Positions 18,001 to 21,000 of a stretch of 64,000 bases of DNA are shown piece after piece. The position numbers were made by a program. Where the stretch lies: the NCBI RefSeq assembly GCF_003790525.1, contig NZ_CP033635.1, one strand, 5' to 3'. This DNA comes from Escherichia coli. GTDB lineage: Bacteria > Pseudomonadota > Gammaproteobacteria > Enterobacterales > Enterobacteriaceae. Position 1 is the first letter of the stretch. The number at the start of each line of letters is the position of its first letter.

Positions 18001-21000
18001 ATGTCAAAGCGCAAATTGAGTTTAACCCCGCGTGGGTAACGGAATACCGTCAGATTGGTTATGAAAAGCGTCAACTTCGGGCGGAAGATTTTAATAACGA
18101 CAACGTTGATGCGGGTGATATTGGCGCAGGTAAACATATAACGTTGTTATTCGAATTAACGCTGAAAGGGCAAAAAGCATCAATTGATAAGTTACGCTAT
18201 GCCCCGGATAACAAATCAGCGAAATCGGACAAAACAAAAGAACTTGCCTGGTTAAAGATTCGTTGGAAATACCCGCAGGGAAAAGAAAGTCAGTTAGTTG
18301 AATTCCCGCTGGGGCCAACAATAAACGCGCCCTCTGAAGATATGCGTTTTCGCGCAGCAGTAGCTGCATATGGGCAAAAGTTACGCGGTTCTGAATACCT
18401 GGATGAAATCTCATGGCAGCAGATAAAACAGTGGGCTCAGCAGGCAAAAGGGGAAGATCCACAGGGTTACAGGGCGGAATTTATTCGCCTGGTTGAACTG
18501 GCGGGTGGTGTGACTGACATCAGTCAGTGATGACTTTTTAGCAAACTATGTTCGACCAGTCAGCATATTTGCTGACTGGTCGAATTAATTAACAATGATG
18601 TTAACTTACTCTTTTGCCTGATGCTCTATTTTGGGGTTGTGAGTGTTTTATTTCTAAGTCTCTATAATAATCATTGATATTTGCATCGCCATATTTATCT
18701 AAATAACAATTTCTGTTTACCTGTCGATGTTGAAAATCAATTTCGTACTGCTCTTCTGCTGAATATTTTTTAAATCTGTCAGCATAGTTTTTTAATAACG
18801 TATAGGGAGCGCTGTCAGAATTGCTTTCCCTTTGTTCAATTACTTCTTTGGCTGACATGCACACAAATGCACCGCAACTTTGGCTTAAGTATTGCTGAAG
18901 ATCGGCATGTAAAAATATTATCTCGGGTTCAGTTAAATGAACTTTTATATTATTATTCGACATTTCTCCCATGAGTTCAGAATTAAAACTATTAATGATG
19001 CGCTTAAGTGAATTTTCTTTTTCATGGCCTAGTGCACGTAATGAATTGAATATGATGCATTTTATTTGTTGTGTGTTATTTTTTTCATTAACTATTTTTT
19101 GTAGCGAAACTAATATCCAGTGTCCGCCAGTATTTATGGGGAATAACTGGACTGCTTTCGGCCATGATGGATCGCTCTTAATATTATCATTGAGAGCGAT
19201 TTCCAGGTAAGTGCTGTTGGAATCGGGGAGGTAGAAATCAGTAGGATAATTGACTTGAGTATTTTTTGCATTAGCGGCTATCTTTTTAAGATAGCAAGCT
19301 ATTTCATCTGTGGTTAATTGACGATTTTTATCCCAGAAGTTTGTCCCATCGCTCAGTTCATTATTCTTATCATTTAAAAGTACCTTTGAAAGCGACTGTT
19401 TTTCTGATATAAGAGGAATGTCCTCACCGATAATTGTCATTAATTTCGAAGGGGAGAATAGTTTTTTGAACAAGAGATCATCTGAATCATGTGATTTGAG
19501 GGGGTGTTTGGTTGCGGTATGTGCCAAATTATATAATTTTAAACAGGCATTTTTAATAAGTCGGATAATCGATAGGGTCTCATTTGTTGGGTTTCTAACA
19601 ATATGGTAAAGAATATCTTCAGCTTTTTTCCCAAATTCATCATAACCTAACGCAATGTTATGCAGTAACTCAATACTTTCTTCATCTCCGGATAACGCTG
19701 TTTTTTTTAAAGACTGCAGTAATTCATCGGTCACAGTAAATTTTTCTGCAAATGTCTGACTGAGTTGGGTTTGAGATAATTGACAATAATTGCTGACAAC
19801 TGTAACCATTATAGGCTCCTTTTAGTTGCAAAGGTTGTGCTGAATGAAGATAAAAAGAGGCAACTTATTGCTCTGAATATAGTGCGTAAGGAGATGAATA
19901 AATATCAAAAATCGCTCAATATGCCCGTGTGGGTGGATATATGTGGCGTGGGTTGCGATAACAGGGCAAGTTTAGCCCTGTTTTTAATAATAAGCAGAGT
20001 TAAACGTTAAACACGGTGAAATCATTCGCCAGTTCAGTCGCCGGGAAAATTGACCGACATTCACGTAACAGGTGCTGACAACCTTTGTCATCATAGCGCG
20101 AGCTGACGTGGGTAATGATTAGCTTACCGACTCCAGCCTCACGGGCCAGTGTCGCAGCCTGGCGTGTAGAGCTGTGGCCGCGACTATTGGCTTTGGCTTC
20201 CATGGTTATATCCAGCGTCGCTTCGTGCACCATGACATTGACACCTTTAGCCAGGTCAAGTGCGGCATCGCAGGGGCCGGTATCGCCGAAAATAGCGAGC
20301 GCTTTACCTGGCACTGGAGCGGCTAAGTAATCTGCGCCGTTAATCTGCCTTCCATCTTCCAGCATGATTGTTTTGCCCGCTTTTAATGCCTGAAACAGTG
20401 GGCCAGGCGGTACGCCAGCAGCTTTTAATGCCTGGGCATTTAATGCACCCGGTTTATCATGTTCTTCAATACGATAGCCATAGCATTCCAGTGGGTGTTC
20501 CAGCGGATAAGCGGTCACTTTGCGCAGGCCATCATCGAAAATTTCGCCAGCGCCAATTTCGACAATTTCCAGCGGATAATCGGTCCATGAGCCGCTAATC
20601 CGCAGCGCGGTCTCCACAAATTCACGGATACCTTGCGGACCATAAATCGTTAAGGGTTGGACAATACCAGACATAGAACGACTGCACAGCAAGCCGGGTA
20701 AACCAAAGAGATGATCGCCATGAAGGTGACTGATAAAAATCTTGTCCAGTTTTCCAGGGTTAAAGGCGGTATGCAGTAGCTGATGCTGGGTGCCTTCACC
20801 GCAGTCAAACAACCAAAGACCGCTCTGGGTCGGATGTTGCAGGTTAAGCAATATTGCCGTGACATTGCGCGTACGGGTTGGCACACCGGCTGAAGTACCT
20901 AAAAAAATTAATTCCATGAGTTCATCACGTTTCAAAAAATATTCCGGCTAGTATAAGGCATACATCTAAAAGGAGAGCATTATGATTGAATGGCAAGATC

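What the first reader, a model, noticed from the sequence alone, without database searches (positions are those of the whole stretch)
19962..19985. Orphan plus-strand intrinsic terminator between two minus-strand genes (elaD and rbn)
Hairpin cagggc-aagttta-gccctg followed by T5 is oriented to terminate a plus-strand transcript, but elaD and rbn flanking it are both on the minus strand. On the minus strand the hairpin is followed only by uuaucg, so it is a weak terminator for rbn. This could mark the 3' end of a small RNA transcribed divergently from the elaD promoter region (about 19810-19985), or a bidirectional terminator.
Basis: seen in the sequence. Interest (0 to 1): 0.35.

Follow-up and report, generated by a model that had tools for sequence, protein, structure and literature searches.

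The report
Stem-loop ending the rbn mRNA
The hairpin is real, but the only mapped RNA end at it is on the rbn strand, so it is most likely the ordinary protective stem-loop at the end of the rbn message; it may also stop stray antisense transcription, and nothing points to a small RNA gene.

Summary
CAGGGC-AAGTTTA-GCCCTG (19962-19980) is followed by T5 (19981-19985). It lies 19 nt after the rbn stop codon, upstream of elaD, in E. coli. Hairpin plus T-run is rare by chance: 2 strict matches in 64 kb against 0.2 in shuffles, the other being the nuoN terminator.

The best-supported function is on the minus (rbn) strand.
- A published K-12 table lists a 3' end 5 nt after the stem. It makes up 65% of ends in wild type and 0 in an RNase II mutant.
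- The next 35 nt of rbn RNA have 16 C and 2 G, which resembles a Rho loading site.
- A bicyclomycin-sensitive (Rho) termination region lies about 80 nt further on.

This matches the known pattern in which Rho terminates downstream and exonucleases trim back to a U-poor stem-loop.

The plus-strand terminator reading is possible but indirect. Antisense-to-elaD transcription runs toward the hairpin. Rho stops most of it about 200 nt earlier. When Rho is inhibited, read-through stays unusually low (0.28 against a median of 1.12).

For a small RNA I found no convincing promoter, no mapped 3' end, no Rfam match and no conserved structure. The hairpin occurs only in elaD-carrying E. coli. The finding is ordinary and of low interest.

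The parts
19962..19980 (.). GC-rich stem-loop: arms 19962-19967 and 19975-19980 (CAGGGC/GCCCTG), 7-nt loop 19968-19974. It can extend to 8 bp (19960-19982).
   Evidence: Sequence. Folds on both strands, -9.7 to -12.9 kcal/mol. Stem identical in the window, K-12, O157:H7 and strain 3150. The loop varies A/C.
19981..19985 (+). T5 run. It is a U5 tail for a plus-strand transcript and an A5 tract 5' of the hairpin in the rbn mRNA.
   Evidence: Sequence. Invariant in all 8 aligned strains. Strict hairpin-plus-T scan: 2 sites in 64 kb against 0.2 in shuffles. Expected 2-5% of the time by local composition if the hairpin is taken as given.
19957..19957 (-). Position equivalent to the mapped rbn-sense RNA 3' end in K-12 (NC_000913.3 2382568, + strand). 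It lies 5 nt after the 6-bp stem and 3 nt after the 8-bp stem.
   Evidence: PMC10667835 Supplementary Table 3, sheet 'RNase II ends in WT': proportion of ends 0.65 in wild type and 0 in delta-rnb, log2FC 5.26, FDR 0.015. Coordinate mapping: window = 2402525 minus the K-12 coordinate.
19927..19961 (-). C-rich, G-poor tract immediately 3' of the hairpin in the rbn transcript (16 C and 2 G in 35 nt). It resembles a Rho loading (rut) site.
   Evidence: only 4 minus-strand and 29 plus-strand positions out of about 64,000 each are as extreme. The role as a rut site is inferred, not tested.
19883..19883 (-). Peak of a bicyclomycin-sensitive (Rho) termination region on the rbn/elaD strand (K-12 2382642 +), about 80 nt past the hairpin.
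   Evidence: Adams et al. 2021 (PMC7815308) Supplementary file 2. Reads upstream/downstream: 57/31 without BCM and 46/81 with BCM. Rho score 3.2, p 5e-5.
20000..20917 (-). rbn (ribonuclease BN / RNase Z) coding sequence. Its stop codon lies 19 nt before the hairpin.
   Evidence: ORF list and translation. RefSeq annotation of matching genomes.
18601..19809 (-). elaD (deubiquitinase) coding sequence, AT-rich (33-39% GC). It is the source of the plus-strand antisense transcription that runs toward the hairpin.
   Evidence: The elaD transcription start from a RegulonDB-derived table corresponds to window 19872.
19761..19761 (+). Peak of a Rho termination region for plus-strand (antisense-to-elaD) transcripts (K-12 2382764, - strand), about 200 nt before the hairpin.
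   Evidence: Adams et al. 2021 Supplementary file 2. Reads upstream/downstream: 274/21 without BCM and 503/139 with BCM. Score 3.6, p 8e-9. The +BCM ratio of 0.28 is among the lowest 2 of 50 comparable sites.
19434..19780 (+). Promoter-like sites on the plus strand inside elaD that could start the antisense transcripts: 19434-19462 (TTGTCA-17-AATAGT), 19540-19569 (TAAACA-18-GATAAT) and 19752-19780 (ATGTCT-17-TGaGATAAT).
   Evidence: Consensus scans only. The first two are conserved in K-12. Such matches are not enriched over shuffles.

Best explanation
The hairpin is the 3'-end stem-loop of the rbn mRNA and belongs to a Rho-dependent terminator module.

**Proposed sequence of events.**
1. RNA polymerase transcribing rbn (minus strand) passes the hairpin, because the tail UUAUCG cannot support intrinsic termination.
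2. The C-rich, G-poor RNA made right after the hairpin loads Rho.
3. Rho terminates transcription about 80 nt further on, just before the elaD promoter.
4. RNase II trims the tail back until the stem-loop blocks it, a few nucleotides after the stem. This gives the mature, protected rbn 3' end.

**What is shown and what is inferred.** Published K-12 data show the 3' end, its RNase II dependence and the bicyclomycin-sensitive region. The sequence shows the C-rich tract. The order of events is inferred.

**The T5 run.** It is the A5 tract on the 5' side of this hairpin. It gives the element the anatomy of an intrinsic terminator for the opposite strand. It may secondarily stop antisense transcripts coming out of elaD, but no plus-strand RNA end has been seen there.
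For: - **Position.** The hairpin lies 19 nt after the rbn stop codon and forms in the rbn-sense RNA (-10.3 to -12.9 kcal/mol, z = -3.2).
- **Mapped 3' end.** K-12 2382568 (+) lies 5 nt after the stem: 65% of ends in wild type, 0 in delta-rnb.
- **C-rich tract.** 16 C and 2 G in the 35 nt after the stem, extreme for this window.
- **Rho region.** A termination region at 2382642 (+), about 80 nt downstream.
- **Published pattern.** This is the pattern Dar & Sorek 2018 describe for Rho-dependent E. coli transcripts: a precise 3' end just after a U-poor stem-loop, protection from RNase II and PNPase, and a rut site immediately downstream.
- **Other gene ends nearby.** These also carry stem-loops: the 16-bp hairpin between yfbK and elaD, and a REP-like stem-loop in the rbn-yfbK spacer of elaD-less strains.
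Against: - The 3' end comes from one re-analysis at low read depth (log2 cpm 3.5, FDR 0.015), so the zero in delta-rnb could be sampling.
- It is not in the curated Term-seq lists of Adams et al., which favour abundant ends.
- The Rho call uses 800-nt windows. It could partly reflect de-repression of elaD rather than rbn read-through.
- Dar & Sorek report that protective stem-loops of Rho-dependent transcripts usually lack an upstream A-tract, and this one has A5. That is left to chance (2-5%) or to a second function on the other strand.
- A stem-weakening allele (G to A, -9.7 to -5.5 kcal/mol) is carried as an exact 76-mer by 241 of about 4265 genomes, so constraint on the stem is not absolute.
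Confidence: 0.7

Rival explanations
1. Plus-strand intrinsic terminator acting as a back-stop. Transcripts that start inside AT-rich elaD on the antisense strand, or read through from yfbK, are mostly stopped by Rho near 19761. Those that escape meet the hairpin plus U5 at 19962-19985 and terminate before running antisense into rbn. This is compatible with the best explanation, because the same hairpin could serve both strands.
For: - Canonical anatomy on the plus strand only. Hairpin plus T-run is rare in shuffles, and the only other strict match is the true nuoN terminator.
- Antisense-to-elaD transcription is documented in K-12: 274 reads in the 800 nt upstream of 2382764 (-).
- With Rho inhibited, the downstream/upstream ratio is 0.28. 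The median of 50 other antisense Rho sites is 1.12, and only 2 of 50 are as low. If all read-through stopped at the hairpin 200 nt downstream, the expected ratio is about 0.25.
- T5 is invariant in all aligned strains.
- An A-tract is atypical for purely protective hairpins.
Against: - No plus-strand (K-12 minus-strand) 3' end at 2382537-2382541 appears in any held table. Those lists are curated, or were cut when stored.
- The stem is short and the loop is 7 nt. U5 is followed by AAUAAU, so predicted strength is marginal (d about +4).
- The low +BCM ratio could come from incomplete Rho inhibition, further Rho sites, or degradation of RNA that pairs with rbn mRNA.
- The T-run is expected 2-5% of the time by composition.
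Confidence: 0.4
2. 3' end of a small RNA or cis-antisense RNA gene on the plus strand. It would start near or inside the elaD 5' end (for example about 19787 or 19890) and end at the hairpin, giving a 95-200 nt RNA antisense to the elaD leader.
For: - Terminator-like anatomy on the plus strand.
- Weak promoter-like matches on the plus strand: ATGTCT-17-TGaGATAAT ending at 19780 and GAGGCA-15-TATAGT ending at 19883.
- RNA polymerase sigma-70 holoenzyme binds the rbn-elaD spacer in genomic SELEX, which is blind to orientation.
Against: - No promoter match of 9/12 or better in 19810-19960.
- No curated Term-seq 3' end in three conditions, although stable terminated small RNAs usually give strong ends.
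- No Rfam family.
- The predicted structure upstream of the hairpin differs between strains, and substitutions break its pairs.
- U5 is short for an Hfq-type small-RNA terminator.
- No paper in the held library links elaD or this spacer to a small RNA.
- The element exists only in elaD-carrying E. coli.
Confidence: 0.06
3. Bidirectional intrinsic terminator. The hairpin would terminate rbn transcription directly, without Rho, as well as plus-strand transcription.
For: - An rbn-sense 3' end maps just after the stem.
- The hairpin is symmetric and has an A-tract on one side.
- Weak intrinsic termination backed up by Rho is discussed as a possibility by Dar & Sorek.
Against: - The rbn-side tail UUAUCGCA has 3 U in 8 (d about -25).
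- The rbn-sense end is absent in delta-rnb (proportion 0), which points to trimming rather than primary termination.
- A bicyclomycin-sensitive region and a C-rich tract lie downstream.
Confidence: 0.1
4. The sequence is an elaD promoter. Shimada et al. 2014 proposed TTAAAA-18-TGTTAT, whose -35 lies in the A-tract and whose -10 is the end of the stem plus the tail. On this view the hairpin is incidental.
For: A genomic SELEX peak for the RpoD holoenzyme lies in the rbn-elaD spacer, and the authors' best consensus match falls exactly on the element.
Against: - The match is poor (4/6 and 3/6, with an 18-nt spacer).
- The elaD transcription start in a RegulonDB-derived table is 60 nt before the ATG (window 19872). 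That is about 80 nt downstream of where this promoter would start.
- A perfect GC-rich inverted repeat is not explained by a promoter.
Confidence: 0.04

Closest known systems
Protective 3' stem-loops of Rho-dependent E. coli transcripts (Dar & Sorek 2018, NAR; hypothesis of Peters et al. 2012)
   Same: - A stable stem-loop shortly after the stop codon, with no U-tract.
- A precise 3' end a few nt after the stem.
- Dependence of that end on RNase II.
- C-over-G-rich sequence immediately downstream.
- A bicyclomycin-sensitive termination region further on.
   Different: - It has an A5 tract on its 5' side, which that study found to be uncommon for this class. The reverse strand therefore looks like a canonical terminator.
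- The stem is at the short end of the range (6-8 bp).
Canonical intrinsic (Rho-independent) terminator, such as the nuoN terminator at window 15005-15031
   Same: On the plus strand: a GC-rich perfect stem, a loop of 3-8 nt and an immediately adjacent U-run.
   Different: - No annotated plus-strand gene ends here.
- U5 rather than U8-9, with a 7-nt loop.
- No mapped plus-strand 3' end. On the strand of the flanking genes the U-tract is missing.
Bidirectional terminators at convergent genes (Ju, Li & Liu 2019, SEnd-seq; recalled from memory, paper not held)
   Same: One hairpin sits where two opposing transcription streams meet. Here these are rbn sense and antisense-elaD or yfbK read-through.
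   Different: - Only one side has a U-tract.
- The annotated genes are co-directional, so the convergence involves non-coding antisense transcription only.
REP / BIME extragenic palindromes
   Same: An extragenic GC-rich palindrome at a gene's 3' end. The elaD-less haplotype has a REP-like stem-loop at the equivalent place.
   Different: Single copy: median one place per genome, highest two. It is much shorter than REP and has no REP consensus.

Membership tests
Protective 3' stem-loop of a Rho-dependent transcript | Stable stem-loop downstream of the stop codon, not followed by a U-rich tract | tested here: met
   19 nt after the rbn stop. -10.3 to -12.9 kcal/mol. Tail UUAUCGCA.
Protective 3' stem-loop of a Rho-dependent transcript | Steady-state RNA 3' end immediately downstream of the stem | tested here: met
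   Published table: 3' end at K-12 2382568 (+), 5 nt after the stem, 65% of ends in wild type. Single dataset, low depth.
Protective 3' stem-loop of a Rho-dependent transcript | The 3' end is produced by 3'-5' exonuclease trimming | tested here: met
   The end is listed among 'RNase II ends in WT', with proportion 0 in delta-rnb. The matching trimming-start site was not found in the held (cut) file.
Protective 3' stem-loop of a Rho-dependent transcript | Rho-dependent termination and a C-rich, G-poor rut region downstream | tested here: met
   16 C and 2 G in the next 35 nt. Bicyclomycin-sensitive region at 2382642 (+). Rho binding itself was not tested.
Canonical intrinsic terminator (plus strand) | GC-rich stem-loop directly followed by a U-tract | tested here: met
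   CAGGGC-N7-GCCCUG then UUUUUAAU. The U-tract is short (5).
Canonical intrinsic terminator (plus strand) | A transcription unit on that strand arrives at it | tested here: inconclusive
   No annotated plus-strand gene ends here. Antisense-to-elaD transcription is documented, but Rho stops most of it about 200 nt earlier.
Canonical intrinsic terminator (plus strand) | RNA 3' ends in the U-tract in vivo, independent of Rho | tested here: inconclusive
   No such end in the held tables. An unusually low read-through ratio with Rho inhibited (0.28 against a median of 1.12) is compatible with a Rho-independent block.
Small RNA gene ending in an intrinsic terminator | Own promoter and a discrete stable transcript | tested here: not met
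   No match of 9/12 or better in 19810-19960 on the plus strand, only 8/12 matches. No Term-seq end. No literature.
Small RNA gene ending in an intrinsic terminator | Conserved sequence or structure, or a known family | tested here: not met
   No Rfam match at E up to 10. The upstream fold is not conserved among strains. The element is absent outside elaD-carrying E. coli.
Bidirectional intrinsic terminator | U-tract on both strands (A-tract upstream and U-tract downstream) | tested here: not met
   Only the plus strand has the U-run. The minus-strand tail is UUAUCG.
REP/BIME repeat | Multi-copy dispersed palindrome | tested here: not met
   Median one place per genome, highest two, in about 4265 E. 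coli genomes.

The most novel reading that the evidence does not exclude
The A5/T5 run is not accidental. The hairpin would be a deliberately two-faced element at the edge of an acquired AT-rich gene. On one strand it protects the rbn mRNA end. On the other it is a Rho-independent fail-safe terminator, shielding the housekeeping gene rbn from the pervasive antisense transcription that such islands generate. If similar outward-facing terminators sit at the edges of other horizontally acquired, Rho-silenced segments, that would be a general insulating arrangement.
Probability: 0.3. Interest if true: 0.35.

Novelty: new member of a known kind. Interest (0 to 1): 0.15.

Why it matters
The finding matters little beyond annotation. 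It shows that a terminator that looks wrongly oriented when read from sequence alone can simply be the protective 3' stem-loop of a Rho-terminated neighbouring gene, seen from the other strand. It also gives a fully specified example for E. coli rbn: hairpin, C-rich tract, Rho region and RNase II stop. If the plus-strand back-stop role were confirmed, it would add a small case study of how a core gene is insulated from antisense transcription coming out of an acquired AT-rich gene.

Tried and rejected
- **Is it an ancestral yfbK terminator orphaned by the elaD insertion?** The orientation fits, because yfbK is on the plus strand. I rejected the idea because elaD-less genomes have rbn and yfbK convergent over spacers that lack this hairpin: B2 E. 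coli (L001), strain SCPM-O-B-8794 (L004) and E. albertii (L005). Only an 18-nt motif, and a copy of the other hairpin (yfbK-elaD), show any similarity.
- **Covariation test of the stem.** It has no power. E. coli diversity here is 2-6%. The only stem change seen is a disruptive G to A, and no compensatory change was seen.
- **ElaD homologue search.** The best 120 hits were all E. coli, so it did not reveal a donor context.
- **Rbn-based scan of species genomes.** It gave useful elaD-less contexts but no second elaD-carrying species.
- **Supplements not held or truncated.** Dar & Sorek 2018, Conway 2014, Grünberger 2022 and Singh 2014 have no held supplement. Thomason 2015, Ju 2019 and Peters 2012 are not held at all. 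The Cappable-seq list is truncated.
- **EPEC RIL-seq supplement.** It concerns an elaD-less strain and has nothing at this locus.
- **The d'Aubenton-Carafa score with modern energies.** It misclassifies rrnB T1 and lambda tR2 as I delimited them. I use it only to compare the two strands.
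Full report
**What is there.** The window is E. coli DNA. The stretch 19700-20100 matches 5421 of 5426 complete E. coli genomes, and RefSeq annotates the flanks as elaD and rbn. On the minus strand, rbn occupies 20000-20917 and elaD 18601-19809. yfbK lies on the plus strand at 16764-18530.

The sequence at the finding is CAGGGC-AAGTTTA-GCCCTG (19962-19980) followed by TTTTT (19981-19985), exactly as described. The stem can grow to 8 bp. Energies are -9.7 to -12.9 kcal/mol, and the hairpin is in the minimum-energy and centroid folds of both strands. It begins 19 nt after the rbn stop codon.

A strict definition (perfect 6-bp stem with at least 5 G/C pairs, loop 3-8, at least 5 T in the next 6 nt) is met twice in the 64-kb window. 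One site is this one. The other is the textbook nuoN terminator at 15005. Forty dinucleotide shuffles average 0.2. One caveat applies: once a hairpin is assumed, a neighbouring T-run is expected 2-5% of the time in this AT-rich stretch.

**Where it belongs.** K-12 MG1655 carries the same element in the opposite orientation: stem at 2382545-2382563 and A5 at 2382540-2382544, with one loop difference. The conversion is window = 2402525 minus the K-12 coordinate.

About 980 of 5421 genomes lack elaD. In those genomes, in E. albertii and in a divergent "E. coli" (L004), rbn and yfbK converge directly over a spacer of about 120 bp that does not contain this hairpin. Similarity to the window is lost within the last codons of rbn and yfbK. 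The elaD segment is 33-39% GC, against about 50% in the flanks.

So the hairpin is part of the elaD-carrying haplotype. It is a single-copy element, with a median of one place per genome. My initial idea was that it is yfbK's old terminator, stranded by the elaD insertion. I rejected that idea because the elaD-less spacers lack the hairpin.

**Evidence on the rbn (minus) strand.** Four independent pieces fit together.
- **A mapped 3' end.** A published re-analysis of K-12 SEnd-seq data lists a 3' end at 2382568 (+) in "rbn<->elaD", among "RNase II ends in WT". It makes up 0.65 of ends in wild type and 0 in delta-rnb (log2FC 5.26, FDR 0.015; PMC10667835 Supplementary Table 3). That position is 5 nt after the 6-bp stem and corresponds to window 19957.
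- **A C-rich tract.** The 35 nt that follow the stem in the rbn transcript contain 16 C and 2 G. Only a few dozen of about 128,000 positions in the window are as extreme.
- **A Rho region.** Adams et al. 2021 (PMC7815308, Supplementary file 2) report a bicyclomycin-sensitive termination region peaking at 2382642 (+). This is about 80 nt past the hairpin and 11 nt before the elaD transcription start given by a RegulonDB-derived table.
- **A weak tail.** The rbn-side tail UUAUCG cannot support intrinsic termination.

This is the arrangement Dar & Sorek 2018 describe for Rho-dependent E. coli transcripts. Termination occurs downstream. RNase II or PNPase trims back to a U-poor stem-loop. The rut site lies just after that stem-loop (PMC6061677). 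I therefore read the hairpin primarily as the protective 3' stem-loop of the rbn mRNA. The order of events is inferred. The 3' end, its RNase II dependence and the bicyclomycin sensitivity are published measurements, though at low read depth.

**Evidence on the plus strand.** No annotated plus-strand gene ends here, but transcription does approach from that side. Adams et al. list a Rho termination region at 2382764 (-), antisense to the elaD 5' end (window about 19761). It has 274 reads upstream and 21 downstream without bicyclomycin, and 503 and 139 with it.

Promoter-like sites on that strand inside elaD are conserved between the window and K-12. Such matches are not enriched in this AT-rich DNA.

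With Rho inhibited, the downstream/upstream ratio is only 0.28. In 50 other antisense Rho sites from the same table the median is 1.12 (interquartile range 0.84-1.42), and only 2 are as low. If all read-through stopped at the hairpin 200 nt into the 800-nt downstream window, the expected ratio is about 0.25.

This is compatible with a Rho-independent block at the hairpin. It can also be explained by incomplete inhibition, further Rho sites or RNA instability. No plus-strand 3' end at the T-run appears in any table I could read. Those tables are curated for strong ends, or were truncated in storage. I rate a secondary role as a back-stop terminator for antisense transcripts at about 0.4.

**The small-RNA idea.**
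- No sigma-70 match of 9/12 or better lies on the plus strand between elaD and the hairpin. The best lenient candidates score 8/12.
- No Term-seq end was found in three conditions.
- No Rfam family matches.
- The predicted structure upstream of the hairpin changes from strain to strain, with substitutions that break its pairs.
- No paper in the held library connects this spacer with a small RNA.

I rate this at about 0.06.

Shimada et al. 2014 guessed an elaD promoter, TTAAAA-18-TGTTAT, that coincides with the element. It is a poor consensus match and does not agree with the recorded elaD start.

**Variation.** Among the window, K-12, O157:H7 and five other strains, the stem and T5 are unchanged, apart from an A/C difference in the loop and one allele. 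That allele is G to A in the 3' arm, which weakens the stem from -9.7 to -5.5 kcal/mol. The exact 76-mer carrying it occurs in 241 of about 4265 genomes. In 5 of 6 sampled carriers elaD is a frameshifted pseudogene. I read this as linkage within one lineage, not as a test of function. Diversity is too low for a covariation test.

**Verdict.** This is a real but ordinary element. It is a new, well-specified example of a known kind: the 3' stem-loop of a Rho-dependent terminator module. The only unusual feature is the adjacent A5/T5 run, which makes the opposite strand look like, and perhaps work as, an intrinsic terminator. Interest is low (0.15).

Noticed in passing
window 18552-18585: A perfect 16-bp-stem hairpin (UUCGACCAGUCAGCAU/AUUU/GUGCUGACUGGUCGAA; -29.1 kcal/mol, z about -7.8) lies between the convergent genes yfbK and elaD, with poor U-tracts on both sides. 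A diverged copy sits in the E. albertii rbn-yfbK spacer.
   Followed up: partly
window about 18505-20008: The elaD segment is 33-39% GC. It is absent from about 980 of 5421 complete E. coli genomes, from E. albertii and from L004. In those genomes rbn and yfbK converge over a spacer of about 120 bp with a REP-like long stem-loop. Homology breaks inside the last codons of both flanking genes.
   Followed up: partly
window 16764-19809 against L003 (K-12): ElaD and YfbK of the window are only about 90% identical to the K-12 proteins. Rbn is 98% identical and the rbn-elaD spacer 98% identical. This points to a mosaic or recombined locus with divergent elaD/yfbK alleles.
   Followed up: no
L087 (strain ET210) 788-1541: An IS1 element replaces yfbK, elaD and the left half of the hairpin. 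The junction lies inside the hairpin loop (…GTTTCGCCCTGTTTTT retained).
   Followed up: partly
window 15005-15031: The canonical intrinsic terminator of nuoN (GCCGCCG-ACATGTT-CGGCGG followed by T9) is convergent with yfbM. It is the only other strict hairpin-plus-T-run in the window.
   Followed up: yes
window 19891-19908 (minus strand): The 18-nt motif TTTGATATTTATTCATCT is shared (16/18) with the rbn-yfbK spacer of elaD-less B2 strains (0 of 300 shuffles score as well). It overlaps the expected -35 region of the recorded elaD promoter.
   Followed up: partly
L085, L086, L089, L090, L092 (position 446 or 1646 of each locus): A G to A allele in the 3' arm of the hairpin occurs as an exact 76-mer in 241 genomes. 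It is found together with a frameshifted elaD in 5 of 6 sampled strains, including O121 STEC.
   Followed up: partly
K-12 2383800 (+), equivalent to window about 18725 (minus strand): Adams et al. also list a Rho termination region inside the 3' part of elaD on the sense strand. This is consistent with poor translation or silencing of this AT-rich gene in K-12.
   Followed up: no
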